The notes below the pieces were generated by a model. That model made no database searches, was not told where the DNA came from, and saw only the letters and a program-made list of their open reading frames with translations. From an uncultured Gammaproteobacteria bacterium (lineage in GTDB: Bacteria; Patescibacteriota; Microgenomatia; UBA10105; UBA927), in NCBI GenBank assembly GCA_964361785.1, contig CAYIBX010000002.1:21160-85159 (forward strand): DNA of 64,000 nucleotides. Reading direction: 5' to 3'. Numbering within the stretch: the stretch's first letter is position 1; every line of letters begins with the position of its first letter. The position numbers were made by a program, and so were the translations under genes. Shown one piece after another: positions 15,201 to 36,200 of the stretch.

Positions 15201-18200
15201 CCATCACGAGTTACACAATTGGTAGATAAAGGGATAGAAGCTCTCCAGCAGCCACTTGAGAATAATGCACAAGTAATTGCATTGTTGCAGCAAGTATTAG
15301 ATGAGTTTAAAAAGTCTGGCGGAGTTGTTCCCGTTCAACCAATAAAGACGGTTGATCAGGCAGTGACTGCGTTATCTGATCCTGTAACATATGCAGGAAT
15401 GACAGGATATGTTGGAGATGTTTCTACATTGATGACAGTTGCAATTTCTGCAATGGAAAAAACTTCTCTACTGAAAAAAGAAGCAGCGCAGTTGAAAAAA
15501 GTAGTGCCACTTTTGGAAGCTGGATTTATGCCAGTCGCGCTGTTACCAGCTCACGCAACGCCTGTTTCTACAAAAACTACAACAGAGACTGCGTCAGACC
15601 AATTTGAACGTATTGCGAGAGAGGGTGAGCTAGAGCGCTTACAACTGCTTACAGATTTGCCATTGTTAGGTTTTCAAAAAGGAATTGGTTGTTCGGATTG
15701 CCAAAAATTCGTAGAGAAAATCACGGCATTATTTAAGCATGTTGAAAAATATTCAAGTGCAAAAAATTATAACCTTGTCTTCCGTATATTGGATATTATT
15801 CAAAAAAATATAGATGCAGAACACGACCTACAGCTTGATCCAGACAATCCGGTCATAAAGAATGAATTTGTCTTTACAGCGCTCAATATGTATGTGGCAG
15901 ACAGACGCGTGCAACTTTTGCGTGCGCAGGATGCTACTGCAAATGCGCAAGCGATAGCATTACAAGAATCATTACAAAAGAGATTTAAAAAGGCCTTATT
16001 TGACCGAATTACAGATGTACTTGATGTAAGTAAGACGCCTGATGCAGAGTATAGTAGGCTTACTCCTGATCGTTTGAAACTTAACGCTTTTCAGGCATAT
16101 ATGGACACAGTGGTGCGCGTTGGAATACCTACAGACATTCTATCGGTAGAACAATTTGTAGACACATCACCACCTGTAACCAAGCACGTGTGGCCAACTA
16201 TAGGTGAGTTTGATGGAAAGCAAATACTCGTGCTGACTGATACAGAAGACAATAACAGGCAGGTTGGCTTTCTTGCATTTTCAAGGGTGGGTGAAGACAT
16301 AGTGATCTCACATCTTTTTGTAGACATCGGGTATCGAATGGGAGCAACAAGCAGACTGCTTCAGATGGTACGCGCACTGAACGAAGATGCCAAAAGTATC
16401 CAGTTTGATCCACAAACATTTAGTGCGATAGGGGTAGAAGTAGGGAAAAATGGGGATGAAGATACAAAAGCGCTTATAAAACAGTTGGATGAGTTTGGAA
16501 TACAAAATACGCCAGTGGAGTCTTTGGATGCGCCTCTTATTGCTCCTGTGGTAGCCCAAGCTGCCATAGAAGAACTTCAGGTGGCGATTATGGATGGGAA
16601 ACTGGATCAGAAAGATCTTGATGCGCTTGGTGGGTTGGCGATAGAAGTCTGGAGTGAAGGGCTGAAGACAATAACAGATTATGTCAAAATCATAGTGGAA
16701 AAGCCATTTGTCTACACGGATCCAGATGGTGAAATTACATCGCTTCTTGCAGCCAAAAATGCGCCGAAGAAATCAAGCATGGACATTCAGGCGGATGCGG
16801 TTCGTGCCGCGTATCTGACCGAAGACGCAAAAGATCTCACGGCTTTCGGGACTCTAAAGAAATTATTTTCTATGGATACTGTATTTGCATCATGGGTAAG
16901 AGCGATAGAAGGGGGAGACACCTTTGCTCCAACGAGAACCCAAAAGGAACTTACAAATTTTGCATCGACACTTGTGGATATGTGGTTGGTTGAAGGCCGT
17001 AAGACTATTACGGATCTTAACGCGATAGATACACAAGCCCAAAAGGCTGCCAAGATCATAGTAAAAGACTTACGCGCTCTTATAGATCCAAAGGGCGATC
17101 TACCGATGAGTGAGACAAAATTGTTAGAGGTTCTTTCTACGCTGACTGGAAAGACTACTTTTGATACTCTTGAACAATTTGTTACCTACTTACTTATTGG
17201 AGATGAAAATTTGAAGGCAGATCTTGATTTGCGGTTATCAACTGCAGCTCAAATAGCAAGTAATGTGAGAAGTTCTTTGACTACGGGAATAATTGCTCAA
17301 ATGTTACCTACGATTTATAAGGTGCAACAAGATATACAGGCTGTACCTGTGGGAGCGACTGAAGCTGATTCAACGACAGCGTTATTGTTACAAACCATCA
17401 CAAACTATAACAAAATTGCACCAAAGAACTTTCGATATGTAGAGGCAGATCGGGTTATTCTCAATTCTATACAAGATCGTATCAATGCATTCGTTTTGTT
17501 TTTGAGAACAAATAACGTGTGGAATGGTGAAGAATCTATACCTGCTCCAGAAAATGTACAAAGTCTAAAAGTTCCTGGATTTTTTCGTTTAGCGTCGTTA
17601 GTGACGAGACCGTCAGTACTACTGCCATCGTTGGAAGAAATGGATAGTAGTCAGTCATTTAACGCAGCTATCAGACAAGCATTTTTTGCAGGAGTAGCGC
17701 CAGTAGTAAATCCAATAATTGAACTTGGAGCCGTACGATCTATGAGTATGTTGCGGAAATTAGACGCAATTGAAAATCTTTTTTTAGCTGCAAATGAAAT
17801 TGTGTCCGACCGACAACTTCGAGTGCTTGCTTTACAAGGCGCATCAGATATAGCGCTTGAGGAGCGAATATTCAATCTTCTCGATACAACATGGCAACTG
17901 ACTCCTGAAGAGTTTACAGATGCAGGGACGGATAGATCCTCGTGGATGACACAAGTAATTGCAGCCGTTCGCCAAACGTACGCCACAGAGCGATTGGCAC
18001 AGATAGAAAAAGAAGATCAGGAATTACAAGCAAAACTTGATACATTTTTTGCAACCTTAGACGTACAAGAACAAAAGCGTTTACAGATAATCGTAGATCA
18101 AGAGGAAAAATTGAGAGCTGCAGAAAAAAGATCTGTTCAGCGAGAGGAACTTCGACAACAAATAGCAGAACGTAGGGCACAAATATCACCACTCGTGCAA

Positions 18201-21200
18201 GGATTACAGTCTCTTGCTGACCGTATGGCTCTATTCCCATCATCAAACACCACTCGCATAGCAACGAGAGCGCTAAAAAGTGTACTCAATACAGCAGGGT
18301 TGTCGGTGACAAAAGAGACTCCATTAGCACTTTTAGAAGAGCTTGGGAAGCTACGTGGATTACCAAAGGATTTGGAAAAATTAGAAAAAATATCAGAGGC
18401 ACTACTCGCGTTTGAACAAGCGTTACAATCGCAGCGGCCTATATATGAGCGTCAGGTGACGAAAAAATTCAATGCTATTGTCGAGAAAGCAATACGAGAT
18501 GAGATTGCCACGCAAGTCGCTCGCAATACGCCACATCTTGCTATAGATAGGCAAATAGAAGAGTCTGAAAAAGAGACAGAGTTGTTGTTGGAGCTGGTTA
18601 GGTTGAGAGCAGAACAAGCGAGACTCGCTGATTTTCAAGGAATACTTGATGTGGAAGCGGAAAAATTAGCAGAGGCCGACAAATTAGTTCTCAATCCTAG
18701 CTTGATAGGGAAGGCTTTGGAGTCACCGAAAGATGATGATAACGTGAAAAGAATTGTTCTCAATGGAAGTGCTTCTCAATTACACTTACAAGTGCTTCGA
18801 AGAATAGGTGGAGGGGCAGAAGGAGTTGTTTATCTCGTGGAAGTGTTATCTGATTCGCAACGAAACGATGTCCCTCAATATATAGCCGCAAAAGTATTGC
18901 TAGATACCAATTCTATGGAGCCAATGTTGGCAGAAATGGTCTATGAAATAGTGGAAGCAAATGAAGATGCAGACTTGTTTGTTGATACAAATCATCACTA
19001 TGTCTATGCAAATTATTCCAATTTAGAAGATGGAGTGGTTCTTATGGAATATATTCCTGGGAAATCCATTTATGATTCACAGTTAAGTATTAAGGATATA
19101 GAAATAGCACTAGCAGAATATGTTCATTATTTATATTTATTATCTCAACAATCTATAGTGAATATGGATCCTAAAATGGAAGCGACGTATTGGGATGAAT
19201 CTGCAAAAATGATTCGAATATTAGATGTGGGTGGGATGCGATATGTTGAATTAACTACCGAAGAATATGCTGAAGTTTATAAAGAAGATAAACCAGATGC
19301 GGTTACGATTGCTAAAAAAATGAACAGCGCAATAATGGCAATCCCGAATATATTTGAAAGCCAATTGTTAGACGAGAGAGGAAATTATAATGGATATTTA
19401 TATGAAAAAGCTAAGTTGCGAAAAGCAATGGTGGATCAATTTATTACAATATTGTCTAATCGAGGTGCAGCGCTTACCAATGAACAAAAACAACAAATTA
19501 AGCAGTTAATAAACTCTGATCAGTTTAAAAATGAAACTAAATTTTATAAATATATATTTCTTAAATCATTTGGATTACTCGAGGAGAAAAATTCACGTTT
19601 TTCACCTGCATGGTATCGAGAGTTTCTTTTTGATATTCGTTCTCAAGCTTTAGATAAGAGTGTTTTGCCTCCATCGCTTCAGTTTACTTATACTGCTCAG
19701 GAGGGTGTCCAATCTCTTGAAAGAATAGATAAATATACCGTAATTAATTTGGATATAGACAAGTCAGATGATAAAAAAAGTTCAGTCTTGCAAACAGAAC
19801 AGATGAAAGCGATTGTGCAATCAGTCATCAAATCCTTTGCTACACGGTTTGGATTGGTTACTGGTCAAGAAAAGATTGTGGATGATGCAGTAAAGATTGT
19901 GAGTCAAGCAGGATTGGCGGCGACATTACCAAGCGTGAAGATGATTACAGATGTGCTGGATGCGAGTACAGAGTGGGAAGCGACACAACCATTAATTGCT
20001 AAACAATTTGATGGGATTACCAACCAAGCCCAACTTCTAGCTATTTACGTTCGTGTTGCATTAGCAGTTGATGTGAGCCATATCAAATTAGTTCCTACTG
20101 TACTAACTCAAACACAATTAGCCATCGAGGCGTTAGAGAAAAATACGAGTCTTCCAAAATTGAAACAAAAATATACGTCCTCTGATGCATTCCTCAAAGA
20201 TCCTCAAGTTACACAAATAATTCAAATCGCACTTTTTAACGCGCTTCTTGGCAAAGATGTTACAGAAAACGAACTCACAAATCTTGCCTTGATTGATACG
20301 AAATTTGGCATAAATAGTAAAGAATTTACCATTCTTATTAACTTTGTTGGGGAGTATGTTTTTAACCTACCCAAGAAGAATGGGGCGACACCACCAGAAG
20401 GAGATGGAGCGCGGGGTGGAGGCGTGAAGACTAGTGGAGAAGGAGGATTGACTGCATTAGAAATTGCTGCGGCAAAATTAGCAGAGAAAAACAAACTTCT
20501 CCTTCAACTTGAAGAAGAAATGATAGCATTTGAAAAATCGAATGTGGCAAAAGACAAAGCGAAGAGGGAAGCTATAACCTCTCTGGTTATCAAGATTCAG
20601 AAAGAGGAGAAGGCTCAGGAAGAACAATTTGCCAATTTTGCAAATGCTGATTTAGCCAATCGTATCGCAGAAACATTAACAGACAAGCGGCTTGCAGAGT
20701 TCCTTACTACACCATTGGGTCAACTCGTTACCCTTGACAGTAAGGCGGTCGATCAGAGCACGTTGACTGTGAATATTCGAGATGTCCATGCGCTTCTTGA
20801 GAACCTTTCTCAACAACAAAATGTCCAAGAAGCACAGCGATTTAAGTTAGCACTCTCTCGAATGGATGAAATGCTTCGTCTCCAAGATGAACGGATAAAA
20901 GAAGAACTTAGGTTTCAAAGGATAGCAGAAGAGAGCGCTGAAAAGACTGCATTTAACAATGGTATTGCTCAAATTTCTCAAGTAGTTCAGGTTCAACAAC
21001 AAAGGGTATTACAAGAGCTATTACGAAAGAACCAACGCACAGAAGAGTTACAAGCAAAAATTTTATCTGTATTAATTATGGCAACGGGAAATGAAAACGC
21101 CATAGCAAAAGCATATCGTGGAGGAGTGGGGATAGACAAATTGAGGCAAGAAATCAAGCGTTTATTGAATGCAAACAAGTTGACCGACAGACTGCTTACC

Positions 21201-24200
21201 CAGTATGAAACCGGCTCTACTCAGGATACGCTTATAGAAGAGATGCTTCTTGTTCTTGATGAACTGTATCAAGAATATCGTGATGTAGTGCTTACGAATC
21301 CGCAGTATCAATCAACGCTTTCGTTTAAAAAACAGGTTAAAAAGAATGTAGAAGAGGTGCTCTCTCTCACCTCAGGTCAGGCAATTCGCATAGCACAACA
21401 AGTGGAAAAAGATGCACAGTCGTTAGACTCAAAGTCCCAAAAGGATGACCTGAGGTCTTTTGCACAGGATTTGACAGTTCGCGCGAGGCTACAGGCTGTC
21501 GCAGCAGAAGTACTTGCAGATGAAAAAGTAGGAAATGCCTATATTGGGAATATTGATGATCTAACTGTTCGTTCACTTATTTTTGATGCCATTATGTCGC
21601 GATTAGGTGAAAATGCGGAAGAAATATTTGCGGACGCAGGGACAACACTTCAGGATATGAGTTTTGAAATCTTCGGTAACCTCGATGCAAAATACAGGGA
21701 AAGTAGAGCTTCCGTGAGAAAACGACAGGATGAGGCATGGAGACTGTCTATTTTTAATGTGCAAAAAACCACAGTGGTTGAGCGAGTTCAAACGCTCATG
21801 GGAGTCACACTTCCAGAAGCAGTAAATCTGGCTCCCATTGACGTTGCCTCGTTTATTTTAAGAATTTCTCGAGATAGAGGCACTATTGGACGATACAGGA
21901 AAAAATTAGAAAAACGATTGATGGTCGATAGTCGCATTCATGAGATGTTAGTTCAGGGAAACGGTATAAGTGAGGCTACTGAAGCGGTGAGAGATTTTAT
22001 ACATGAGACGTATCCTGAGTATCGCGCATTAGGGGTGGTTAATGATACATGGATTGATGACGTGGTAAAAACACTAAGAAAAAATACAGAAAAGGAGCGG
22101 CTTGTCTATTTGAGACAATTAGCAGCTCTTCGAAAAAAAGAGCAAGCGGAAAATGCGACAGCTGCTAAGCAGTCAGCAATAGAACGAACGAAAGAACAGC
22201 GGCTTAATGAGTTTAACGTCATGTTGGAGTCGATACAGAAAATTGGATGGATTGCATTTGAGAAAAACAATTATGAAGCAATTCCTGACATATTACGCAC
22301 CACCCTGTTTAGACCGGATGAGTATGATTCTCTTCGATTTCCAGAATTAGCTGTGTTAGACGATATCATTAGTCGGTTTGTATCGAATGCGATACAAAAT
22401 GGAAACGTTAATAATTTGCAATGGAATATAGCAGAAAATGAATTGTTTAAAAATTCTCTTTTTGTTGATCAATATGTGACAAGTGCTGAGCGAACAGCGG
22501 CTATAGAAATTATGAGATACCTTTTTGCCGTGCATGTACAGACTGAACTCAATGATCTTAAACGAACCTTAATACAAAAAAATCCTGTCAAGCAGTCTGG
22601 TGCAGTATATGCAGTGTTGGATTCCTTAAGGTTCGTCTCTTTTAAGCTCAATAGTATTAAGTCATCCAGAGACGGTTTGGTGTTTAACAGATTTGTTTCA
22701 AAAACTGATGTAGCTGCGATGTTTTTGTCAAAGTCTTTATTTGTAACGTTTGATCCGTATGTTCATCAAGAGGTAGGTAATGAGTCGATGATAGTGTATG
22801 TGGGACGAGAACGTGTGTCGATAAGAACAGATGAAAAACGAGATATTCGTTTACCTAACGGAAACATTGCCATAGTGAGCCTGAAACGCATGTTTTCGAA
22901 ATCGTATGAAGTATCTATTACAACAGGAAATAATACCGTCATGATTCCAATTCACTACGAAAAAGCACTTTCTTCTTATTTACCACAGCAGAAAAAAGCT
23001 CCTTGGGGAGCATATGTTTTTGCGGGCATTATGTTGGCAAGTGTCGTAGTTGGATTTCTAACTTTTGGAGGTTCTGTGCCGTTCACATTAGGTCTTCCGA
23101 TGATTGGTGGATTATTGATGACTGGCATCCTATACACGCCAAATCTATCAGCGTTTATTCATCCCACTGAGTGGTCTCAATTGCCTGATTCCTCAGCATA
23201 TACGACAGAAAAAATGCTCGCAGCAGCACCAGTAGTTCCTGTTACACAATCAAGTGTAGCAAATCAGACTGATCGATTAGCTACCGTTAAGATTCAAACG
23301 CAAGGGGTTGCACGGCCAGCAGGGGGCTCCAGTAGTGTTGTCACGGATACTGCACAAGTTGTATCAACTAACGTTAACGAACAACTAATGAAAAATCGTG
23401 ATCAACAAGTCACACTCATTCGATCATCAGCCCTATCATTTGCTACTACAATACAGTCAATAGCACAGGCGTATGTGGGCATTGAATTATCTGAATCTGA
23501 AGCAGATGACCTAGTGTTAGTTTCGCAGGATATCAATACTCTTTCTTCAGTAGATGCAATTGACGTCATAAAAATAACCGAACGAGTTAATTCGTTCATC
23601 GCAACGCCCCTTGGTCAAAAGACTATTGGTCTCATGCAACACGTAAGTCAAGCAGACTCTGTGCGGGCAAATAATTATTCCAATATGAATACTTCAATTG
23701 AGGCGATGAGTTCTGATATTTCTCAGCATTATTTTGGTGGTACTCAAGGAGTCGTGGAGATGAGTGTAGTGAATTTGGATACAGGCGAAACATTTGGGAC
23801 TCAACAACAAACAAAAGTTCAAATGAAATCTAATCTAAATATAGTACAAGTTTATGTGTTGATATCTTTGCTTGAGCAGCAAGGTCATACAGGTGCCGAA
23901 TTATTGTCATTTACACCAGAGGGAATAGGAGGCCTGACTGTTCAGCAAATTATAGACACGTTGTTAACAGAGCATCAAGATTTAGAAGGTAAGATAGCAG
24001 CAAAGCTGCGGATATATTTAAGTGACCCTTCTAGAGAAGAAGCTGTCACTGCTTCTTTATCAAAGACGGGACTTCTTAACACTGATTTAAAGACAAGTAC
24101 TTCAACTGTATCTGATATTTCTACATTTTGGGCATTTGTAAATACAAATGGATTTCCAGATGATGCAGCTTCAAAAGCTATTGTTCGTGCTCTTACTACT

Positions 24201-27200
24201 ATTAATAAGGAAGATGTGAAATCTCGAGCCTTTTCTTACTATAAACAGGATGGACAAGGGCTAGCACTTCCCCTGATGTATTACTCACGAGCGTTTGATC
24301 CCAATGATGCAGATTCAATGAAGCCGATGTTTAAAAATGGTCCGATAGAGACGCTTAATACAAAGGATCCGTTTGTGATAAATATGTTCTCATCAAATTC
24401 GGACTCATCCACAAATAAAGCGACTGTCAATAATAGCGGTATCGTGCAGCTACCAAATGGTCAAAGATATGTCATAGTAATGTCCTTGACCGGTACGATA
24501 TCAGAGCAATCAAACGGCTTTGGTTTTAACGTTTGGGATTTGGAAGATGAAACGACGCATCTGGCAAATATTGCGCATATGTCTTTTGATGCAGGCATGG
24601 CACAAACATATGCTGACAAGACGCAAACTAGCACTGCATATTTTGACGCTAAGGCTACAATAGGGTGGGGAAAGTTAAATAACGTTGCTGATACGGCAAG
24701 TAGAATTAATGGAACTATAATTGAACCAGGCAAGGCTGTAGATATCGCGGCCCTTGCATGGGGATACGATTCAGGTGGAAATCATCACATTAGTTATCAT
24801 GGTGAAATTGGTAGCGGCATGTGTGCAGATGCTTCTACATTAGGTGATGCCATAGATGGATACGGCAATCCTCAAGTGCGTGTATTGGAAGGGACGGCAC
24901 ATCATGATCCATCGATTCATGTTCCGTTTAACCCAGGGATGTATGGCAATATCGCTAATTATTCGTTTAGCCCTGGAAATTCTTATAATATTGCAAATGA
25001 GACTGATAAGCGGTTAAAAATAGTATACACGAGTAATTATTTTACTCTTGACGAGAGTAATCCTGAAAATGTTACGTTAAATTCATGGTTTGCACAGAAC
25101 GGATATGTTTTAGGAAATAATTCACCCAATGATCCACATAATGGGGATTATCCAAATGCACTAGATGTGCTGGGTGAAGATGCATTTACTGTGACTGCAT
25201 GGGTGCTTGAAGTGGATGAGCAGGGTAATCCGATTGCAAATGCGCCAGCCAATGCGTCATATTTTGCTTCAATAAATAAGGCTTCTACGCTTGTGGATGT
25301 AAACACAATCCAGAGCGTGAAAGATATAAATAATGCAATAGCAAGTCTTGATTTGATCAACCAACAATTACAAAAAAATCCAATAGAGACAGAAGGCACC
25401 ATTGAATCAAAACAACAAGTTGACTTAACCAATAATGAGGTGACGAAATATTCTCCTACAGAGCCGTATGATGCTATCATTCCTCAAATTGCAAACATGA
25501 GTATTGATATACCAGAGTCGTATGTACCTGAAGATATCGCAAATTTAGCAGATCGAGCGAATATATATTCGTCGTCTTCTGTGCAAAGTAAATCAATAAA
25601 GACCCCTAGTTTGAATCCAACACTATTGGCAACTATTGTCTCATCTGGTCCTATATTTATGACCCCGCTGGGAGAGAGGATTATTCAATATAATAACGCG
25701 TATTATAACGCAGATACGGGCGAGTTTATTACTAATAATCCTCAGGATATGTTTGTGCAAGTATCTAATGCAAGCATGTTTAATTTTTCGTTGAAAGCTC
25801 CTACAAAACCAAATACTATTGTGGATGAAAAAGATTTACAAAGTAAAGAGTGGAAGGGGCTCATAAATTCCATTGATGCAGAACTCTATGTGATTGGCGC
25901 AAAGGAGAATAAAGATTTTTCAAGAGAAACCATTATACAGATATTTAAGTCTGGTACGACTGAACAAAAAATAGACGCACTAAACGCAATTCATTTAGCT
26001 CTTGCGATTGTCAACCCATACACACAGGACGATAAGACCATGGTTTACGACAAGTACGGTTCATATCACCTCACTGATTTAATTGGAAAAGGGACTTGTA
26101 TGGAGCAAACTGTATTGGCACAGATATATTTATCGTCACTGCAGATATCTTCTGTTGCAACGGAGACTGTTACGACAGGATTTTCTGCAAATGAAGAAAA
26201 GAAAAGCACGTTTGCTCATGCATTCGTAACAGTGGTCATTGACGGTGTACGATATGCGATTGAGTTTTCAAGTGAAGCATACGTTCGTCCAGCAGATACA
26301 ACATCAAATATAGAATATCTGCGTCAAGCATATCCAAACTACACCATGGCGAGTCGAGAATATGCGCTTCGATCAAATACGAAAGATACAAAAACCGTAT
26401 ATAACGTTGTGACACTGCCACTCGATGTCTATTTGCGAAATATTTACTTGGATAATAAAAAAGACGCAGGAGTAACGGATATTCAACTAAAGATATTTGA
26501 ATACGGTGTCGGGAAGATGTTTGCACCAATTTCAGAAGTGGATACAGTAAAAATAGAGCAGTATAAACAAGCTATATCACAATTTGGTCACACAGAATTT
26601 ATTCGTTTTGTACTAGCTAACGAATGGCTACAAGGTCGTATTTTAAACGATATGAAGAGACAAATGGAGGCATTTCGTTCAGGATTCAGTTTAGCGACTC
26701 TCAAAACGCGAGCAACAACTATCTCTACACGTTTAAGAACGACTTTTTCTCGATCCGTTAGTTCCATAAGAATGCGTTTTACAGGATTATTTGTTCGATT
26801 AACTTCAGCCCAACGGCTTACTGTTTCAGATTCTATAGGAACGCATAATAGAGTAAATCAAGAAGTGGTCACTTACAGTGTGCGCGATCAGAGGAATATC
26901 ACAACACAGATTCAGGGTGAATTTGCTTCGGAGTTGTCCTTTGTGAAACAAGTTGAAAAGGAGCGTGTACAGGTGAAACAAGCAAATATTTCCGTATCAA
27001 GCTCTATAGCGAAAATTATCAATGATTTTTCGACATTATCTCCTGATGTTATTAATTCTGATTTGGAAGCATTATATGCGCGCGCCACAGTCGTGTTTGA
27101 ACGTGTATTATCGGATAAAAAAGGCATAAATTCATTTACCGACGCTCAGATCATAGCTATCGTCAGAGCGCTAATGCATGGTGGAAATATTGCGATAGAA

Positions 27201-30200
27201 TTACCAACAGGTACCGGCAAAACTTATGCTACAGCGTTTGTAGGACTTATGGAGTCGCTTCGGGGACGTCCAGTATTGGTTAGTTCTGCAAATGCTGACT
27301 TGGCAGAGCGAGATCTGAAAAATGTATCAGATTTGTTTACTGCATTTGGAGTGGTTTCGGGAGTAGCAGGCAAAGGACAATATTTAAATCTTCAAGTTCA
27401 AATCACCTATGGTAAATTATCTGATCTAGTTTCATCGTACTCACAGGCATTGCGGCAAGGGATAGACATTCCGATAGCTCAATATGTGTTGATACCTGAT
27501 GAGGGTGATAAGAGTTTACTTCAAGAAGCATTAACTCCCATTGTTATGTCTGAAAGTTTTGGAGATCAAGCAAAGATTACAGATGGAGAAGGGCGACTGC
27601 TCGTTTCTCTCGCCAGAAAAATGCGTAATTGGTCAGGTGATGAATTATATTTGGAAACGGAAATTTCTGATAAGCGGTTGTCTGCCTTGACCCCAAGGGC
27701 TATTGAAGAATTAGCCATGTTGAAGCCGGATTCGCTCAATCAAGATGAATTTAACAGGTATGTTGAATTTGCCAGACAGGCGACGCTTATGACAGAAGGT
27801 ATAGATTATCTTTATGATCCTTATACAGAGGAAATTACCCTTTTGGATAGCGAACAGATGTCTGACTTGGATAAAAAGTTTGAGTCGTCGCTTCAACATG
27901 CGTTGGAAGTCAAACATGGGAGAGCGCATAATTTTTCGGATGTTCATGATGTAGTTGTCGACAAACATACGACGATGGCATTTGTACGACAAGTTGGTAA
28001 AGTGATTGTGTTTACAGCGACAGCATTTGATGAAATAAAAGAATTGGACACATATTATGAACTAGACCTTGCATCAATACCAAGTCCACTTTTGATATCT
28101 CTTGCTAAACAGAACACAGAAGATTCACTTCGATTAGTGCAGTTTTTCCATGCTGAAAGTAACCAGTGGATCTACGCCATTGCACAACGGCAGAATAATA
28201 CATGGGTATTAATTGAAAAAAATCGTGTGGATTATGCACCGAGATTTTTTGTAACTGACGATGCAAAAAAAGAAGGAGTTCTACAAGATGTGAAAGACAT
28301 TCAAACAAATAATCAAGCGGTACTTATTGCAGCGAAAAACGAGGGGTATATGGAAACGCTTGCTGAGGCGATTCCTAATGCGTTAGTCATATCGGAACGT
28401 AATCAATCAAAAAAACAAGAAAGCATACTACAGGCATCAGGTAGTCGTTCAGTCGCTATTGGGACAGCAAACATTGGACGTGGTATTAACTTTCAACCAA
28501 GTCAGGCTTTGCAGGAAGCTGGTGGATTTTTTGGCATGATTACCAGCATTTTAAAGCCAAGCACCTTGTCACAAGTGCGTGGTCGTGTCGCTCGATTAAC
28601 AGTACCTCAGCTTGATTCTTTGTCGTTGCGCGCGTGGGGTGCAACGCGGCAATACCTTTCATTAACTGATCTAAAGGAAGTTCTTGGTAAAAACGACCCT
28701 CGGATATTACGGTTAGAGTATCCTTCTGGCGAAATATTGCCAACAGATAAACGATATAACACGCTTCTTTCATTGCTTACAGAAGCGGAACAAAAGCTTC
28801 AGCAGCAGGAAAAAGTTGCTCGTGATTCTCAGTTTCATCTTGACCATACGTCAGATCGTATTACGTCAACCAAGCGCGCTTTGGCACTCTCTGGATTTGG
28901 CGCTGCTCGTCAGACATACGATTGGATGTTGCGTCGGTTAGCTCAGTTACCAAATCAGAGTCAGGCAGCAGTATATCGAGAACAGATAGAAGCAGCATGG
29001 AAACAGTACTTGCTTGATCTTGAGTACTTGAAGACCACCGCATGGTTAGGAGTGATGGAGGAAAAAATTGAATTTGATGTGTTCTATCAGAAAGAGTCAG
29101 CGAGTTTGTTGCGTCAGATGATTACGACACTTTCTCAAGAAGTACCGGTAGAAGTCTTAACGCCGACTATAAGTATATTAGAAAACGATACTTGTGCAGG
29201 ATCACGTGGAAATTGTGTAGCTGAGGCTCTATTAACTGAGCGTGCTATCGATTCAATTCTTACCAGTAATCTTTCTGTGGTGGATAAAAGTAACTTGCTT
29301 GATGGGTATATCCCAAGTAAGGAAGCAATGCCAGCTCATCAATACGCACAGCATGTAGCTATGCTTGAGCTTGCAAAAACTCAAATTAATCCAAAGATGG
29401 GACAAAAGGCGTCTCAAATAGTGACCTCTGCGATGCAGTATATCAATGCAATACTCGATGGGAATATTACTGTTGCTGATAGGGATGTAACAACAGCTGT
29501 AAAGAAGCGAATGCAAAATATTATAAATGCATTGCAACTGAAGGTGGATTTTGAATCTAAAAATGCAAAAATACGAATAGTAATTACCACTGAGCAACCA
29601 CCTGATCGATTTGCAGCTATCCGTGCTTGGATGCCAGCGCCAGAGACAATTCTTCAAAATCCATTTTTGAAATGGGCGACGCCATTTTTTGCGAGACTTG
29701 GATTGGGTGTCGTACCTCCTTCAAGAGATAATAGTGAAGCTCGAATTGTGATTGATCAGCAGCAACTTTCATCAGGAGCTGATTCAAATACAATAGCACA
29801 ACTTAGTTTGGATGATTTTTTGAAACAGTTCTCTACTATTTCACAGTTGTCATTACAAGGAAAGCGTTTTGAACTTACTGGTCAAATAAGCGTAGAGTCA
29901 CTTATTCGTTTACACACAGAATTATCGTATGAAGCTACCGTATTACTTCTTAAAGACGGGAGACGCATATTGATTGTCGGTAACGAAGAATTTGCAGCTA
30001 AAGAGACGTCTGTAGATAGTTTACTTACAGAATTCGGTGAAGATCAGATAGTTTTGAAGCTTCATTCACATATCGATACAGATCATACACCTATATCTAT
30101 AGGAGATCTTGTCGCGTATGAAGAAATTTTTGGAACACATGTTGTTATCAATGATGATGGCATCATGACATACGCAGTTCCAAACGAGGCCAAGAACGAA

Positions 30201-33200
30201 GACATGAGAGATTATGCTATGGAATTAGTGCAACAAGCGCTTACCAAACAAGGAAGTGGGCTTACAGCATTTAATTTATTATTTGACGACACTTTAGAAT
30301 TTACGAGATTACTAATTATTGAATTACCTAGGGGTAGTTATCAAGAGGATAGTAACGCTGTTATTGAGTTATTTAATAGAAATACTCGAGGAATTAATGA
30401 GCAAAGTGGGGTAAATAAGGAGCAAATCCAATCCGCCGCAGAACAGGTCATGGATACGGTAGAAAAAGTTGCTGAAGTTACCGATCCAACCAAAGACAGT
30501 TGCACCAATTGTCTCAAATTTGCCCACGATTTGCGAGTGTTTCTGGAGAAAGCGTTAAACAAGGATACGCCCGCACGTGAGAAGAGAGAAGCTCTTCAGA
30601 GTGCAAAGAATCTTGTTGACCAACATAACAATGCCAAAAATAGAATTGTGTTAGAAACAGAAGATGCTCTGGCGGAGGTGACAGAGGGAGAGTTGGTTGG
30701 TACAAAAGAAGAATGGGAACAGGCGATTTCAGCAATTGATGAAGCGCTTTCAGAAATTACCAAAGGGTATGATGCGCAATCCGCAGAAGCAAAGGCGATG
30801 CTTACTGCGTTGAAGACGGATTTAGAAAAGTTATTGGGTGCTATCCGTTTTGCGATTATTGCCTCTCCAGCCCCAACTAACAAACTCAATAGTAATAACA
30901 TCAAAGCTCTGAAACTTTCCAATCCTATTTTGAGGTCTGATGGGGATTATCGACAAGCGGCAACTGTAATAGCAAAAGATATCGTAGCGTTTCTCTCTGA
31001 GCTCAAAATCAATTCAGTAGATACAAGTAATAGTCCAGACATTGCGACCTTCATCACTGAGAGGGTAACGCGAGCGGGTATTTCATCAACAGGCGTACAA
31101 TCAACATTTAACGATTTCTTAAGCGACGCCATTCTCGTTGAAGCTGCTAGGCAAGGACTAAATGTAGCGGTTGTTACTGATATACCCCATGAAAACAAAA
31201 AAATCAGAGCAAGAATATCTACTAAGTTCAAACCAAATCTCATAACAACAATCACGAGTGCTTTCAAGAAACTATTGTTAGGCCAGCAACCCACTGAATC
31301 CACTCCCTCATTCTTCCTTCAGCTTTCGTTTGGTTCTACGGGTTCCGAGACACAAGATTTTCAAAAGAATACTTGGTTTTATAACGAATTTTTACATCAG
31401 ATTAAAATTTTCAACCCAGAAAGCTCTCAGATTGAGTATTCCTATTATTCCGGTGAAGTCAATGAGCCAAATCTTGGAGCACCATTAGAGGGTATAGTTG
31501 CAGCTATTCGTAATTGGGCTACGTCATTTTTTGGGAGATTTGGATTGGGTGTTACATCTTCTTTAGAAGATACTGGCGTTCCTCGCATTGTTATTGATGC
31601 AGAGCAGGGGATAGTACTAGAATCACCAATAAAACCAAAAAATCTCCTTTCGGAGATTTTGGTACGCCTAGCAGGTTTGCGTATTGACTGGTCTGATAAC
31701 CTAACGAAAAGGTTACCATTTATCTCACCGTTTGTCAAGTTTTTGGGTGTGGACTCGCCGAGAGTTGAACTCGGTAGACTTGGGTTATCAGACCAGTCTA
31801 GCAAACCTGCCGAGCCCACACCAAAATTAAGTATAGCACAGCAATTCCTCAACGCCATTTTGCCCGCCAATGCACCATGGGCGCGGCCAATACGCGCCTT
31901 TCTTGGCAGGTTCTCACCAAGCTTTTTGACACCACCTCCTCCGGCTATACCGGAACCCACAGGCTTGTCTCCACCATTCTCAGAAAATGATTCGTTCCGT
32001 ATTCAGCAGCGGGAATCCGTGGCAGCGACTATTGTACAGGCATTTCTTACCTTTACCGGCAGGAGCCCTGCTGATCCGTTGGCAAACACATTCAAAACAC
32101 TTCTTTTGGGTGATCCTGCGGTTCTCACACTGTTTACCGAACATTTTTTTGATCCATTACATCAAAAGTCGTTGCCTCCGCTTACCCGCGATATGTTTGA
32201 CAAAAAAGCCTTAGCACAGTTGTCTGATCCCGATATTTGGTTAGCAGAGATGAATACAGCAGGACAAACGCCACAGATGACCTATCGATCTCAAGTATGG
32301 TTACTGTTGGAAGCACTCGGTTGGCGAGTGCTCAGGGTAGATGATGTCCAAGAACTTTATAACGCCAATAATACCGCCAAAAACGTACGAGATCAGCATA
32401 CGATAGGCGATCATCTTCTCAAAATGATTATGGGGATATTTGATAAAGCACGAGACACGATAGATGACGGATCCCGTCAGTATGCGTATCTTCGTGTCAC
32501 GGGGGACAAATATGCCATCATCGTACGGGATATAAACGCGGTAAAAAATGCATCCAACCCTTTGGCACAAGCGTTTGATACGTTGCTGTCTAATCAAAAG
32601 ATGTTGTATCAAAAGGATCGTATAGTATCACTCCCGATAGGACTTCATACATCATTTGAAGAAGAGCTTAGTCTAGAAGATCTGACTCGCATTGACAGGC
32701 AGAAATTTATGCAGGCAGCAAAAAATCAGAAACCGTATACAGGAGAGCAGCTTCAAAATTATCGAAAGACGCACCCTAGGCTCAATGCTATTTTAGACTC
32801 TATTGATACATTAGACACAAATGATGAAGGATTTAAAACGTTTTTGACACAGGTGGTGGCGACGCTGATGGTAGATGATCTGCTTGAGGATACAGCTAAC
32901 GATGTGCAGTCGGCATTGCAGAAAGAAAATCCCGATGAAACACTTCGTGTGTTTCCTGATGTCGCTAGTGTCATTGAGACGGTGCGTACAACCAAAGGCT
33001 ACGGGAATGCGGTGCGCATGTTGCGAGTCGGATTTGCGGGAGTCTTAAAGCATGTCAATACAGATTTTGAAAAAACTCTGGGAGATGCGGCTGGCGATGA
33101 GCTGATTAAGAACCAGTTTCGCCCTGTTGTCGAGTATGTGACGCGGGAGATCCTCCGAAAGACGGGGATCACGGCACAAATCGTATTTCATCCATCGGCT

Positions 33201-36200
33201 AATGATTTTATCATCATGCTGCCGCAAGGTACTCTGGTCGATATCGGAGTGCTCCGTACCGCGTTAGTAAACGCGCTCAATGATCTTTCTATTGGGGGTG
33301 TTTCGTATTATTCTCATCCTTCTTTGTCTATAACAGATGTAGTATTTACAGATGTGGGGTCGCCTTTGGAGCAAGAGGCGGAAAATTTTGTACGTATAGA
33401 TAACGCGTTTGCAGTGCTGGGGGAAGCATCTAATCAAGACGCGCTGAGTTCTATAGATACTCATTTCTATCTAAATGGATTGCCGCAGCAGGGTTTGCCC
33501 GTGCACCATTGGGACTGGCTGAGACGCTATCTTTCTACCAATGTCGTATTAGAAAAGCGCGGACCAATTCGATTGGCAGAATTAGGGGTTACGGAAAAGG
33601 AACGATTGAAACTAGTATCAATTGAGCCAGAAAATAAGTTTGAAAAAGACGAAGATGTGTTAGCCGCCGCAGCATGGCAGAAATCGATCGGTGGATTTGT
33701 AGAGAGGTATGCCAAAAAAGATTTGCCTTGGTGGCAGAGGGCGTTGAAGTGGGTGAGTGATCGCATACCAACTCGGGGTGCTCCAGCCACACCGATACCA
33801 GGTCAAGCGGTGGTGCAGTTATTAGCACCATTTGCAGGTGGTGATCATTTTATAGATTTGCCTCGTGTTCAATCAGCTATTTTTCATCCAACCAGTGCGT
33901 CGCAAGGCACATATGTTCTTGCTTTAGCATCAGGCGAAACTGCGACAGTGAACGGAGTTGCATTATCTTTAAGTGAGCGCATGGAGCTCAATGATCTTGA
34001 TGAAATCTTGATAACAAGAGGTGACTTGCGAGTTCGAGGTGTAATATTTTTCTTTGGACCGTTGGAACCATTGTTTATCCAAACCAGAATTCCAGTACTT
34101 GATGAGACCAAAGAGAAGCAGTTTCCAAGAGAGCAAATAGAGCAACAGTGGAAGCTCATAACTGAAGCAATAAAGAGAAGAATACCGGAAAATCCCCAAT
34201 TACAAAAAGTTATGTTAGCTTTTGAAGCTCGACCTGTAAGTGAAACCATGCCGCTCGAGATGATTCAGGCTGCTGCAAGCGTGGATCAATTAATCCAACA
34301 ACTGTACACGAGATATACGTCTACACTTGTTGCTTATTTATCATTATCGAAAGTACCGAGTGAGGTTATTGGTTTGGACTTACACAAAGCGCCAATTTTA
34401 GAAAACATGTCGTGGTATCGAGAAAAGGATACATGGTCGTACATACTCCATGAGGCAATAAAAATCGATCCTGAGCTCGCATCAGTATTTAAACCATCTC
34501 AATCATACGTTATCGCCAGTTGGTTTATGAATCCGACGAAATATTTGTTACCGACCGTTGATAACCCGAATATCGACGTTGAGCAGTTGTTGTTGGCAAA
34601 TGAGACAATTAAACGGGGGACGGCGTTATTTACCTCAGATACATGGAGGCAGTTACGGGATAGCATTGACTACCATGAAGCAACAACAAAATCAGAGGAG
34701 TTGATGGGATTGGATCCGTTTGAGTTTCATATGATAGCGCAGCGGTATCGCTTTGCTCGGGAAGTAAAATTATTAGCACTTTCTGCAGAATTAAACACTC
34801 AGGCCTCCGATATAGCTCCTGGAAAACCCACACGCCTTTTAAGCGGTGTTGAGGTTACTCTTATAGATGCTTTGCTTTCCAAATCAGTTGATTTTTTGAA
34901 TCCACAAGTATGGGAGGGAAAAACATTAATGAGTTCTAGCAACGATAGAATTTATCGGATTACCGTTGCAGGCCGAGAGTATTTGCTTAAGGAACAGCGT
35001 AGCGCAATGCATCAGAACAGGATTCTTCAGGGTCCGTTCATGGATCGCAATACCAGTCAAATAGAGTTTGAGACGGCTGAGTATATGCGCGAACATGCTG
35101 TAGGCGAGTATGGAGATATCCACGTTAATTGGGAGAGTCCTGTAGGGTTTGTGACATTCCCTGATGGGTACCAATTTGCGGTATTTTTGTATGAGAAAAA
35201 TTTGGAATCACCTGTTACCGATTTTGTCGGTATTCGCAATATGGAAAATAGTAGAGTAAGTGAAATCTATTTGAGAGAGGAAGATACCATTAAGAAATTG
35301 GGCGACGTAATTGTCGCACATCGTGAGCAATTTGAGGGTGAGTTTCAAGCAAGTATTGAGGGATTATCAGAGGAGATAACATTTGCAGACTTTGCAAAGT
35401 CAAAGGCACGATTGATGTACGAGGACGCTGTTCTTTTGATGGAGTTTCTTCCTATTTCTCAAGGGTATTACGTAGGCGATCTTGACGGGTATGATTTTCG
35501 TATCGTTACCAATCCGCGTGTAGCGCTCGAAGTGGTTGGATTTGATTTTGAGATATTTTATCGTTTTGATGGAGAGAAAATGCCAATTGGGTGGGATTAT
35601 CGTACTCAGGAATATATGTATGAGTCCAGAACACAGAAAGAATATTTACAATCATATCTGGATAATTTTGTGACATATAGAAACGGAAGAATATCTGCGG
35701 GGCTATCAAAGAATCTTGATGATGGTGGATCACGCGCTGTATACAAAGTGCTCGTGCAAAAGGATCAAACACAGATGGACATGATCTCTGAAGTGGAGCA
35801 GATGATTAAAGAGCAATCTACTCCTGCCCGTTCTGGTCCGCGACGATTTAGTATCACAGAAGAAAACAAATTACCAGAACTCATCGTCACAAATCCATCG
35901 AGAAATGCATGGTATGAGGAGGTCATGCAAAGAGTAAAAAAATGGTGGGGAGATCGGCAAATTTTATATCTCATACCACCACAACTACAGCCATTTGTTG
36001 GTTCATCTGATGATTCAAATAAGGGAAATGCTGCAAATATAAAGAAGCCTATCACAACAGGGATGCGTTCGGCTATATCTTTCATAGACCAATTATCCCA
36101 ACAACAGCAAGGGAAGGTACAGACAATTCTACAGAGTCGTGAATTTTTTGATTCAGTATTAGTAGGAAAGAGTAATGCTGGAGAATACCTTCAAAAGAAA

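What the first reader, a model, noticed from the sequence alone, without database searches (positions are those of the whole stretch)
27090..28650. Second, better-conserved SecA-like DEAD-motor ATPase module about 7,000 residues downstream of the first
Motif I LPTGTGKTYA lies at 27201-27230. It is followed by VLVSSANADLAERDLKNVSDLFTAFGVVSGV, which parallels SecA [30 protein letters not shown]. Motif II VLIPDEGDKSLLQEALTPIVMSE at 27487-27556 parallels SecA [35 protein letters not shown] at 27889-27933 parallels SecA LHQAVEAKEGVQIQNE. VIVFTATAF parallels GMTGTA. Motif V VAIGTANIGRGINFQ at 28452-28497 parallels IATNMAGRGTDI. Motif VI QVRGRVAR is at 28565-28598. The collinear match to several SecA-specific segments, beyond generic helicase motifs, is striking. 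Two such motors in one polypeptide suggest an ancient internal duplication or a self-contained translocation or remodelling function.
Basis: partly seen in the sequence, partly recalled or inferred. Interest (0 to 1): 0.75.

Follow-up and report, generated by a model that had tools for sequence, protein, structure and literature searches.

The report
SecA-like motor inside giant protein
A 13,468-residue membrane protein of an uncultured groundwater bacterium (candidate phyla radiation) carries, deep in its interior, a divergent but apparently working copy of SecA, the motor that pushes proteins across the bacterial membrane; such motors have already been reported in giant proteins of other phyla, so this is a new example of a known oddity.

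Summary
Window 27009-29201 (residues 8934-9664 of one 13,468-aa ORF, window 210-40616) is a true SecA homologue, not a generic helicase. Pfam SecA_DEAD scores 55 bits against a cut-off of 24.6. The best 24 hits among solved structures are all SecA or SecA2. A profile-profile alignment covers SecA residues 43-788 (E 3e-64).

The preprotein-crosslinking domain is detectable on its own (Prob 95.5), and so is the two-helix-finger part of the scaffold (Prob 83). All ATPase motifs are intact and conserved in relatives. The wing domain, the N-terminal helix and the C-terminal zinc tail are absent.

The host is a Gottesmanbacteria-like bacterium from groundwater. A syntenic orthologue of 7,844 aa carries the same module.

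The upstream "first motor" (window 6546-8309) has collinear SecA-flavoured motifs but no significant similarity to module 2, so an internal duplication is not supported.

SecA-like domains in giant bacterial proteins are already described for Omnitrophota and Actinobacteria and are predicted to aid secretion. This is a new member of that kind, in a new phylum. The most likely function, which is inferred and not shown, is a membrane-tethered polypeptide-translocation ATPase.

The parts
210..40616 (+). Giant ORF, 13,468 aa, non-repetitive, almost entirely without recognisable domains. It carries everything listed below.
   Evidence: ORF list. Pfam finds only SecA_DEAD/P-loop_SecA and GNAT. No tandem repeats and no internal protein repeats.
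27009..29201 (+). Complete SecA-like module (giant residues 8934-9664), aligned to SecA residues 43-788 of 836.
   Evidence: hhalign of 4 giant-type modules against 38 SecAs: Prob 100, E 3.1e-64, 649 columns. The boundaries coincide with drops in identity to orthologue P0039, which is 21% on both sides of the module.
27138..27560 (+). NBD1 first half. Holds Walker A GTGKT (27210-27224), the SecA-specific SSANADLAERD segment, Walker B DEGD (27498-27509) and LLQEALTPIV.
   Evidence: invariant columns G72 G74 K75 T76 N99 L102 A103 R105 D106 D168 E169 D171 E177 A178 T180 P181; coordinates.
27561..27890 (+). Preprotein-crosslinking-domain (PPXD)-like insertion within NBD1, residues 9118-9227. It is somewhat shorter than in SecA.
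   Evidence: hhalign of the segment with flanks: Prob 99.2, E 2.7e-19 against SecA 217-362. Core without flanks: Prob 95.5, E 1.6e-8 against SecA 243-318. The AF2 model is of low confidence here, pLDDT 36-54. Pfam SecA_PP_bind is not detected.
27891..28088 (+). NBD1 second half: [10 protein letters not shown] (SecA GLHQAIEAKEG) and motif III FTATA (SecA MTGTA).
   Evidence: T340 and T342 invariant. 69% identical to P0039.
28089..28220 (+). Insertion of about 44 aa between NBD1 and NBD2 (residues 9294-9337). It is absent from canonical SecA but shared by the giant-protein modules P0039, P0042 and P0094.
   Evidence: Gap opposite SecA in hhalign. Alignment of the four modules shows a common ...LV.V....W... 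block.
28221..28619 (+). NBD2 (IRA2): R.D entry motif, motif V GTANIGRGINF (28452-28496), motif VI QVRGRVAR (28572-28595).
   Evidence: Own SecA HMM, domain at 9338-9428, E 1.8e-7. Pfam P-loop_SecA is weak. Invariant R495 G496 Q526 G529 R530 R533. AF2 pLDDT 70-89.
28953..29162 (+). Helical-scaffold remnant corresponding to the SecA two-helix finger (residues 9582-9651; AWKQYLLDLEYLKTT...FYQKES). The fingertip Tyr is replaced by Met.
   Evidence: Own SecA HMM i-E 1.2e-4. The same region in P0042 gives 1.9e-6. hhalign of the C-terminal segment alone: Prob 83, E 9e-6 against SecA 709-777. Pfam SecA_SW is the top but non-significant hit, E 0.11. W668 is invariant.
6546..8309 (+). Upstream 'module 1' (residues 2113-2700), a P-loop motor with collinear SF2/SecA-flavoured motifs: GQTGLGKS, LLIDEFD, GFTGTP, GSGRGTDI, QGIGRFRE.
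   Evidence: Sequence reading. No hit in Pfam, NCBIfam, PADLOC or PDB. AF2 failed, pLDDT 32. Smith-Waterman against SecA z 4.4; against module 2 z -0.3.
23010..23132 (+). Nearest predicted transmembrane hairpin upstream of the module (residues 7601-7641), conserved in P0039. No hydrophobic segment follows until about residue 12889.
   Evidence: Kyte-Doolittle scans; P0039 sequence.
38043..38357 (+). GNAT acetyltransferase domain (residues 12612-12716), on the same membrane side as the SecA-like module.
   Evidence: Pfam Acetyltransf_7 E 6e-6, 27 bits, exactly at the cut-off.
38874..39314 (+). C-terminal cluster of 3-4 hydrophobic segments (residues 12889-13035).
39315..40613 (+). C-terminal Cys-rich domain with an HEFFH (HExxH) motif at residue 13359; probably extracytoplasmic. 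The final roughly 250 residues (13215-13466) are similar to the C-terminus of P0039 (26% identity, E 1.3e-15).
   Evidence: Cys density and motif. BLASTP 13215-13466 against P0039 7429-7692.

Best explanation
SHOWN. Residues 8934-9664 of the giant protein are a divergent homologue of the SecA preprotein-translocase ATPase. The module keeps the SecA domain order:
- NBD1 with a PPXD inserted in it;
- NBD2;
- a remnant of the helical scaffold that corresponds to the two-helix finger.

All nucleotide-binding and hydrolysis motifs are intact: Walker A GTGKT, Walker B DEGD, motif III TAT, motif V GRG and motif VI Q..GR..R. The module lacks the SecA N-terminal helix, the helical wing domain and the C-terminal zinc/SecB-binding tail. 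It carries a family-specific insertion of about 44 aa between the two NBDs. It is one of the best-conserved stretches of a rapidly evolving giant gene. That gene sits in a conserved neighbourhood (Rho, LysM/M23 peptidase, GIANT, YfhO, NPCBM, methyltransferase) in Gottesmanbacteria-like CPR bacteria.

INFERRED.
- The module lies on the cytoplasmic face. It needs ATP, it shares an uninterrupted hydrophilic stretch of about 5,200 aa with a GNAT domain, and it is bounded by transmembrane segments.
- Cys-rich segments at the N-terminus and at the extreme C-terminus (with HExxH) are outside the cell.
- Because the polypeptide clamp element (PPXD) and the finger region are retained, the module most likely still works as an ATP-driven polypeptide-translocation motor. 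The giant protein's own transmembrane segments would hold it at the membrane, replacing SecA's lipid- and SecB-binding ends.
- It would feed polypeptide through a channel, most simply SecYEG. The substrate could be segments of the giant protein itself, further copies of it, or partner proteins.

This is the function already proposed in the literature for SecA-like domains of giant proteins.
For: Homology: (E 3e-64 over SecA 43-788).
PPXD.
Finger region.
Catalytic motifs invariant across giant, P0039 (54% identical), P0042 and P0094 (23-24% identical).
Conservation: identity to P0039 peaks at 67-69% in NBD1 and falls to 21% just outside the module.
Rarity: an exhaustive search of 1.84e9 representatives finds one close relative. 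The other hits are true SecAs, three further long carriers (P0042, P0094, P0177) and several unexamined proteins of 1,000-1,400 aa.
Synteny with P0042, which carries the module at its C-terminus:.
Topology indicators.
Fold search: the top 36 hits are all SecA, E 1e-27 to 1e-16, and the next hits are DinG/DEAD at 6e-10. This is partly circular, because the AF2 alignment consisted of SecAs.
Literature: West-Roberts et al. 2023 (bioRxiv 10.1101/2023.11.21.568195) and Kaur et al. 2021 (PMC8195603) predict a secretion role for such domains.
Against: - No experiment exists for any giant-protein SecA-like domain.
- Elements that canonical SecA uses at the membrane are missing: the N-terminal amphipathic helix, the wing domain and the C-terminal tail.
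- The fingertip Tyr is Met here and Gln in P0039 and P0042.
- The long scaffold helix is not detectable by sequence.
- The module is about 1,300 aa from the nearest upstream transmembrane segment.
- In orthologue P0042 the protein ends with the module, so export of a downstream C-terminal domain cannot be its general role.
- The module is translated long after the N-terminal exported region, which makes export of that region in cis awkward.
- The topology rests on hydropathy and Cys distribution only.
- The AF2 model is of moderate quality (pLDDT 62) and poor in the PPXD.
Confidence: 0.6

Rival explanations
1. Repurposed motor. The SecA-derived ATPase no longer moves polypeptides across a membrane. 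Instead it acts in the cytoplasm as an unfoldase or remodeller for the giant protein or its partners, or as a nucleic-acid-dependent SF2 enzyme.
For: The wing domain, N-terminal helix and C-terminal tail are lost, and the fingertip Tyr is not conserved. There are very long branches and no closer affinity to any SecA subgroup. The module lies about 1,300 aa from the nearest transmembrane segment. SecA belongs to helicase superfamily 2 (established knowledge), and there is weak P-loop similarity to DinG.
Against: The PPXD and the two-helix-finger region serve no known purpose outside polypeptide translocation, yet both are retained and conserved across 23-54% identical relatives. The carrier protein is membrane-anchored with probable exported ends. 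No nucleic-acid-binding domain was found.
Confidence: 0.22
2. Both motors descend from one ancestral SecA-like module by an ancient internal duplication, so that the protein carries a tandem motor pair.
For: Module 1 has the same motif order and spacing, with SecA-like GFTGTP and an exact GRGTDI. Smith-Waterman against a canonical SecA gives z 4.4, p about 0.002. Orthologue P0042 also has an N-terminal P-loop module plus the C-terminal SecA-like module.
Against: Module 1 against module 2: z -0.3, best BLAST E 1.2, hhalign Prob 1%. No internal similarity in self-BLAST. Module 1 matches no Pfam, NCBIfam, PADLOC or PDB entry. Its structure could not be modelled. The module 1 regions of the giant protein and of P0042 are not detectably similar to each other.
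Confidence: 0.12
3. Inactive relic. The module is a decaying remnant of a captured secA gene and has only a structural role.
For: Only about 23% identical to SecAs. Scores are far below the full-length SecA cut-offs (82 against 862 bits). Several SecA domains are lost.
Against: Every catalytic motif is intact and invariant in relatives that have otherwise diverged to 23-54% identity. The module is among the most conserved parts of the protein.
Confidence: 0.04
4. A generic SF2 helicase or restriction-type motor whose likeness to SecA is superficial.
For: Walker A/B and motifs III, V and VI are shared by all SF2 enzymes. There is a PADLOC DinG hit over residues 51-141.
Against: SecA_DEAD is above its cut-off while DEAD is below its own. 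The top 24 PDB hits are all SecA/SecA2 and nothing else has E<0.3. The alignment is collinear through the PPXD and the finger.
Confidence: 0.02

Closest known systems
SecA-like (Pfam SecA_DEAD plus preprotein-binding) domains embedded in giant bacterial proteins of Omnitrophota and Actinobacteria (West-Roberts et al. 2023, bioRxiv 10.1101/2023.11.21.568195; Kaur et al. 2021, eLife, PMC8195603; a 20-protein PF07517 architecture cluster in 10.64898/2026.06.07.730766)
   Same: A divergent, long-branch SecA_DEAD module with a PPXD, inside a multi-thousand-residue protein that has transmembrane segments. No wing domain. It co-occurs with GNAT and peptidase-type motifs. A role in secretion is predicted.
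   Different: The host is a CPR/Patescibacteria (Gottesmanbacteria-like) bacterium, a phylum not treated in those papers. Those papers state that the scaffold is absent, whereas here a two-helix-finger remnant is detectable. There is a shared 44-aa NBD1-NBD2 insertion and a second, more divergent P-loop motor upstream. I could not compare sequences with the Omnitrophota modules, so common descent is untested.
Canonical SecA preprotein translocase ATPase (e.g. B. subtilis 1M6N/1TF5, E. coli 2FSF)
   Same: Domain order NBD1 (with PPXD inserted), NBD2, helical scaffold with two-helix finger. SecA-specific segments NDYLA.[37 protein letters not shown] and QLRGR.GR all have counterparts.
   Different: About 23% identity. 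Embedded at residue 8934 of a 13,468-aa protein. Lacks the first 40 or so residues, the wing domain and the C-terminal tail. The fingertip Tyr is Met. There is an extra 44-aa insertion. Scores are far below the curated full-length cut-offs.
SecA2 accessory translocases (M. tuberculosis 4UAQ, C. difficile 6SXH/6T4H)
   Same: These are the best single PDB sequence hits (E 7.8e-14 and 2.7e-12). Like SecA2, this would be a second, specialised SecA paralogue with reduced C-terminal parts. That the host also has a canonical SecA is expected but was not tested.
   Different: NCBIfam SecA2 models score lower than the SecA models (60-72 against 78-82 bits), and all are far below their cut-offs. It is not a stand-alone protein. 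No accessory-Sec genes are present in the neighbourhood.
SF2 DEAD-box and DinG/XPD helicases
   Same: Two RecA-like domains with Walker A/B and motifs III, V and VI.
   Different: Pfam DEAD is below its cut-off. Fold-search E-values are at least six orders of magnitude weaker than for SecA. These helicases have no PPXD or finger.

Membership tests
Pfam PF07517 SecA_DEAD (SecA motor domain superfamily member) | Score above the curated gathering threshold | tested here: met
   55.3 bits against a cut-off of 24.6, E 7.9e-15, profile positions 39-288 of 290.
Canonical SecA | NBD1 with Walker A/B and the SecA-specific inter-motif segments | tested here: met
   Invariant columns shared with 31 SecAs; HMM alignments.
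Canonical SecA | PPXD inserted into NBD1 | tested here: met
   hhalign of the PPXD core alone: Prob 95.5, E 1.6e-8 against SecA 243-318. With flanks: Prob 99.2. The fold itself is not confirmed, because AF2 pLDDT is 36-54 there.
Canonical SecA | NBD2/IRA2 with motif V (GRGTDI) and motif VI arginines | tested here: met
   GRGINF and QVRGRVAR are present. Domain hit E 1.8e-7. R495 G496 Q526 G529 R530 R533 are invariant.
Canonical SecA | Helical scaffold domain including the two-helix finger with a fingertip Tyr | tested here: inconclusive
   The finger region is detectable (Prob 83, E 9e-6; i-E 1.2e-4), but the Tyr is replaced by Met (Gln in relatives). The long scaffold helix is not detectable by sequence. 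Pfam SecA_SW gives E 0.11.
Canonical SecA | Helical wing domain | tested here: not met
   SecA positions of about 620-705 face gaps or unaligned short sequence in hhalign. There is no SecA_SW hit above threshold.
Canonical SecA | N-terminal membrane-binding helix and C-terminal zinc/SecB-binding tail | tested here: not met
   The alignment starts at SecA residue 43 and ends at 788 of 836. No CPCGSGKKYK-type motif follows. The flanks are unconserved.
Canonical SecA | Stand-alone protein of about 750-1,100 aa that reaches the curated equivalog cut-offs | tested here: not met
   Embedded in a 13,468-aa ORF. The best NCBIfam score is 82 bits against a cut-off of 862.
Canonical SecA | Binds SecYEG and drives preprotein translocation | not testable with these tools
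   Requires biochemistry.
SecA2 (accessory Sec) | Reaches the SecA2 equivalog cut-offs, and accessory-Sec or substrate genes lie nearby | tested here: not met
   60-72 bits against cut-offs of 725-1100. The neighbours are envelope glycosylation genes.
Giant-protein SecA-like domain class (West-Roberts 2023) | Divergent SecA_DEAD plus preprotein-binding region inside a giant (>10,000 aa) protein with transmembrane segments, without a wing domain | tested here: met
   description of the class. Common ancestry with the Omnitrophota modules was not tested, as no sequences were at hand.
DEAD-box / restriction-type SF2 helicases | Best match to helicase families, with no SecA-specific inserts | tested here: not met
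   DEAD scores 21.3 bits, below its cut-off of 26. PDB helicase hits have E>=0.47. The PADLOC DinG hit covers the P-loop only.

The most novel reading that the evidence does not exclude
The giant protein is a self-contained, dual-motor export device peculiar to CPR episymbionts. Its own transmembrane segments would form or recruit a conduit. The two ATPase modules (one clearly SecA-derived, one perhaps so) would thread polypeptide through it independently of the housekeeping SecA. The threaded polypeptide could be the Cys-rich metallopeptidase-like C-terminus or separate effectors, delivered to the cell surface or into a host cell. That would amount to a new kind of secretion system built from a fused SecA.
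Probability: 0.08. Interest if true: 0.85.

Novelty: new member of a known kind. Interest (0 to 1): 0.4.

Why it matters
How bacteria insert and export proteins of more than 10,000 residues is unknown. A recurring clue is that such proteins, in unrelated phyla, carry their own SecA-derived motor.

This case adds three things:
- It extends the pattern to the candidate phyla radiation, that is, ultra-small and probably host-dependent bacteria.
- It shows that the module keeps the two substrate-handling elements of SecA (the PPXD clamp and the finger region) while losing the ends that normally tether SecA to the membrane and to SecB. That fits a motor tethered by the giant protein itself.
- It identifies a compact module of about 730 aa with clear boundaries that could be expressed and tested for SecYEG- or preprotein-stimulated ATPase activity.

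It does not change any established concept.

Tried and rejected
1. The word-indexed homology search with module 2 returned only canonical SecAs at about 23% identity. It missed the 54% relative that the exhaustive search later found, so it gave no help on family distribution.
2. AF2 of module 2 with a SecA alignment gave pLDDT 62 and a poor PPXD. The SecA-only fold hits are partly circular, so I did not use them as independent proof.
3. AF2 of module 1 with six near-identical sequences gave pLDDT 32, which is unusable. No fold search was run on it.
4. Module 1 against Pfam, NCBIfam, PADLOC and PDB gave nothing beyond a 33-residue P-loop match.
5. Neighbour-joining on 161 SecA-type motor regions left all giant-protein modules as long branches with canonical SecAs as nearest neighbours at distance 0.76-0.84. 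No clade was resolved, so the tree says nothing about origin or about SecA against SecA2.
6. Internal duplication was rejected for lack of any signal.
7. The idea that the module exports the downstream C-terminal Cys-rich domain in cis was weakened, because orthologue P0042 ends with the module.
8. The weak VanW-like hit (E 0.07) and DUF922 hit (E 0.008) are both below their cut-offs and were not relied on.
9. Rfam, tRNA and tandem-repeat scans of the window found nothing.

Full report
OBSERVATION

The flagged stretch lies in a single open reading frame of 13,468 codons (window 210-40616, + strand). The Walker A motif GTGKT is at residues 9001-5 (window 27210-27224) and Walker B DEGD at 9097-9100 (27498-27509). 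An upstream P-loop module exists as claimed: GQTGLGKS at residue 2113 is 6,885 residues earlier.

IS IT SecA-LIKE OR ONLY A GENERIC HELICASE?

It is SecA-like.
- Pfam gives SecA_DEAD at 55.3 bits (cut-off 24.6, E 7.9e-15), while the generic DEAD family stays below its cut-off (21.3 against 26).
- NCBIfam ranks eight SecA/SecA2 models first (E 2e-23 to 2e-11). The first non-SecA model, YoaA, has E 0.004.
- Against all PDB sequences, the 24 best hits are SecA or SecA2 (best: M. tuberculosis SecA2 4UAQ, E 7.8e-14). Nothing else has E below 0.3.
- In an alignment with 31 SecAs, the residues that distinguish SecA from other SF2 enzymes are invariant columns: N..LA.RD after motif I, L..EA.TP after motif II, and the motif V/VI residues.
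- PADLOC gives only a P-loop-limited match to a type IV DinG.

EXTENT AND ANATOMY

I built a profile of four giant-protein modules: this one, P0039, P0042 and P0094. Aligned to a profile of 38 SecAs, it gives Prob 100, E 3e-64 over 649 columns. Module residues 4-734 pair with SecA residues 43-788 of 836. The module is therefore residues 8934-9664 (window 27009-29201), about 550 bases longer than the finding.

I also tested sub-regions on their own.
- The PPXD-position insert with flanks gives Prob 99.2, E 2.7e-19.
- Its core without any NBD1 flank gives Prob 95.5, E 1.6e-8 against SecA 243-318.
- The C-terminal segment alone matches SecA 709-777 (Prob 83, E 9e-6). I identify this, from knowledge of the SecA sequence, as the two-helix-finger part of the scaffold (W.eHL..md.Lr.gi.lRaYaqkdP..eYk.E).
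- My SecA HMM finds the same region here (i-E 1.2e-4) and in P0042 (1.9e-6). Pfam SecA_SW is the top hit but is not significant (E 0.11).
- The fingertip Tyr is Met here and Gln in P0039 and P0042.
- The long scaffold helix is not detectable by sequence.
- The wing domain, the first 40 or so residues and the C-terminal zinc tail have no counterpart.
- An insertion of about 44 aa between NBD1 and NBD2 (residues 9294-9337) is absent from SecA but shared by all four giant-protein modules.

An AF2 model built on a SecA alignment has confident NBDs (pLDDT 70-89), a poor PPXD (36-54) and a moderate helical C-terminus. Its 36 best PDB fold matches are all SecA (E 1e-27 to 1e-16; the next hits are DinG/DEAD at 6e-10). 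Because the alignment consisted of SecAs, I count this as consistency, not proof.

RELATIVES AND ORGANISM

An exhaustive HMMER pass over 1.84 billion representatives found one close relative: P0039, 7,694 aa, 54% identical, E 7.8e-217. It is MCL4200211.1, labelled 'GNAT family N-acetyltransferase [Patescibacteria group bacterium]' and truncated at its N-terminus by the contig end. After it come true SecAs from E 7e-18 downward. Three further long carriers appear among the top hits: P0042 (7,844 aa), P0094 (2,176 aa, named SecA by JGI) and P0177 (2,970 aa).

A GTDB genome scan returned Candidatus Gottesmanbacteria bacterium UBA5942 (54% identity). A metagenome scan returned one more 54% relative on a 1.17-Mb contig. 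A neighbouring gene of the window is found verbatim on Hainich groundwater 0.2-um-fraction contigs.

P0042 sits in the same gene neighbourhood as the window's giant gene on the downstream side: GIANT, YfhO-like, NPCBM, then a methyltransferase (one search compared). The Rho and LysM/M23 peptidase genes upstream of it recur upstream of the giant-gene region in the close relative L002. The window itself starts too close to the gene to show its own upstream neighbours. P0042 is therefore a positional orthologue, even though the module is only about 24% identical and lies at the very C-terminus there.

Against P0039, identity peaks at 67-69% in the two halves of NBD1 and falls to 21% immediately outside the module on both sides. 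All catalytic motifs are invariant across the four modules. This pattern indicates a functional ATPase under purifying selection within a fast-evolving protein.

REST OF THE PROTEIN AND TOPOLOGY

Pfam recognises only the SecA-like module and a GNAT domain (residues 12612-12716, exactly at the cut-off) in 13,468 residues. There are no tandem or internal repeats.

Strong hydrophobic segments lie at residues 50, about 3604-3635, about 3797-3826, 7601-7641 and 12889-13035. None lies between 7650 and 12889 except three weak, charged segments that I do not take for transmembrane helices: 11001-11019 and 12830-12854 (mean hydropathy 1.33-1.34, two or three charged residues each).

Only 55 Cys occur. 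They are concentrated in residues 1-800 and in the last roughly 270 residues, which also hold an HEFFH motif.

From this I infer that the stretch 7642-12888, carrying the SecA-like module and the GNAT domain, is cytoplasmic and that the two ends are outside. This remains unproven.

THE FIRST MOTOR AND THE DUPLICATION IDEA

Module 1 (residues 2113-2700) shows GQTGLGKS, LLIDEFD, GFTGTP, GSGRGTDI and QGIGRFRE in the SF2/SecA order.
- It matches nothing in Pfam, NCBIfam, PADLOC or PDB, and it could not be modelled (pLDDT 32).
- Smith-Waterman with shuffling gives z 4.4 (p about 0.002) against a SecA, but z -0.3 against module 2. A control region reaches z 2.3.
- hhalign gives Prob 1%. Self-BLAST finds no internal similarity.

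A SecA-like origin of module 1 is possible. A duplication that gave rise to both modules is not supported.

MECHANISM

Shown: a SecA homologue with intact ATPase motifs, a PPXD and a finger remnant.

Inferred (confidence about 0.45 for this step): it still moves polypeptide, tethered to the membrane by the giant protein's own transmembrane segments instead of by SecA's missing termini, and it probably works on SecYEG.

The substrate is unknown. Cis-export of a downstream domain cannot be general, because P0042 ends with the module. Action on other copies or on partner proteins is equally possible.

The main rival (0.22) is a motor repurposed for cytoplasmic remodelling. An inactive relic (0.04) and a generic helicase (0.02) are unlikely.

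COMPARISON WITH WHAT IS KNOWN

West-Roberts et al. (2023) reported that most giant bacterial genes, mainly in Omnitrophota and also in Actinobacteria, encode divergent, long-branch SecA_DEAD plus preprotein-binding domains lacking the scaffold and wing. They proposed a role in export of the giant protein. Kaur et al. (2021) noted SecA-like ATPase domains in giant actinobacterial toxins 'predicted to facilitate their secretion'. A 2026 Omnitrophota preprint lists a 20-protein PF07517 architecture cluster.

None of the papers I could search treats CPR/Patescibacteria.

The present case is thus a new member of a known kind. Its modest additions are the new phylum, the detectable finger remnant, the shared insertion, the conserved synteny and the second candidate motor.

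It fails membership in canonical SecA or SecA2: it is not stand-alone, it scores far below the curated cut-offs, and it lacks the wing domain and both termini. It meets the definition of the SecA_DEAD superfamily and of the giant-protein SecA-like class.

VERDICT

The SecA-like reading is supported, the duplication is not supported, and the function is plausible but untested. Interest 0.4.

Noticed in passing
window 210-40616: The 13,468-aa ORF is almost entirely 'dark'. Pfam recognises only the SecA-like module and one GNAT domain. Unlike most giant adhesins, it has no tandem or internal repeats.
   Followed up: partly
window 6546-8309: An upstream P-loop module has SF2/SecA-ordered motifs, including an exact GRGTDI, yet matches no family or structure library. 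Close relatives (79-90% identical fragments P0189-P0191) exist in ENA and Logan data.
   Followed up: yes
window 39315-40613: The C-terminal region of about 430 aa follows a cluster of hydrophobic segments. It is Cys-rich (10 Cys in 200 aa, against 0.4% overall) and has an HEFFH zinc-peptidase-like motif. Its last roughly 250 residues resemble the C-terminus of P0039 (26% identity, E 1.3e-15). It may be an exported metallopeptidase-like domain.
   Followed up: partly
window 345-420 (residues about 46-70): The N-terminal signal anchor reads ...NKAQYG-FAPILAMITIAII. The orthologue P0042 reads ...NKG-FVQLAPLVFLAIL. This G-F-hydrophobic layout recalls a type IV prepilin (class III) signal, but the Glu at +5 is missing. 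The true start codon is also uncertain (GTG at 210).
   Followed up: no
window 41154-63849; L003 1-35535: The giant gene has a conserved neighbourhood. In the window and in L003 it is followed by YfhO-like, NPCBM and methyltransferase genes. In the window, PMT_2 and GT2 glycosyltransferases, a hexapeptide transferase and an RmlC-like epimerase come next. Rho and a LysM/M23 peptidase lie upstream of the giant gene in L002 and L003. This looks like a cell-envelope glycosylation locus.
   Followed up: partly
L002 5674-19955 (ENA ERZ1286166 contig_3783): In a close relative, the region homologous to window 4029-12520 is broken into 14 consecutive same-strand ORFs. The DNA alignment has many gaps, and FHA-domain genes follow. 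This could be long-read indel errors, a pseudogene, or a shorter gene that lacks the SecA-like module.
   Followed up: partly
window 24660-25560 (residues about 8150-8450): This is the block most conserved with P0039 (62-73% identity). It gives a weak VanW-like Pfam hit (E 0.07). By eye, beta-lactamase-like and transglutaminase-like motifs lie nearby in P0039. All of this sits on the presumed cytoplasmic side, just upstream of the SecA-like module.
   Followed up: no
P0177 residues 1530-2121: A 2,970-aa protein with a K/Q/L-rich composition, which reminded me of intracellular-bacterium effectors, also carries a SecA-like motor. Its Walker A is NTGQGKS, and it also has motifs GTPGTS, GRGIDF and QIAGRCARNG. 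SecA-derived motors in long proteins may therefore be wider spread than Omnitrophota, Actinobacteria and CPR.
   Followed up: no
window 1-64000: GC skew is positive in every 2-kb window (0.03-0.26), whichever strand the genes are on. No tRNA or Rfam family was found in 64 kb.
   Followed up: no
tool behaviour: The word-indexed protein search did not return P0039, which is 54% identical and is in the collection. The exhaustive search found it at E 7.8e-217. Giant proteins may be under-recovered by the indexed search.
   Followed up: no
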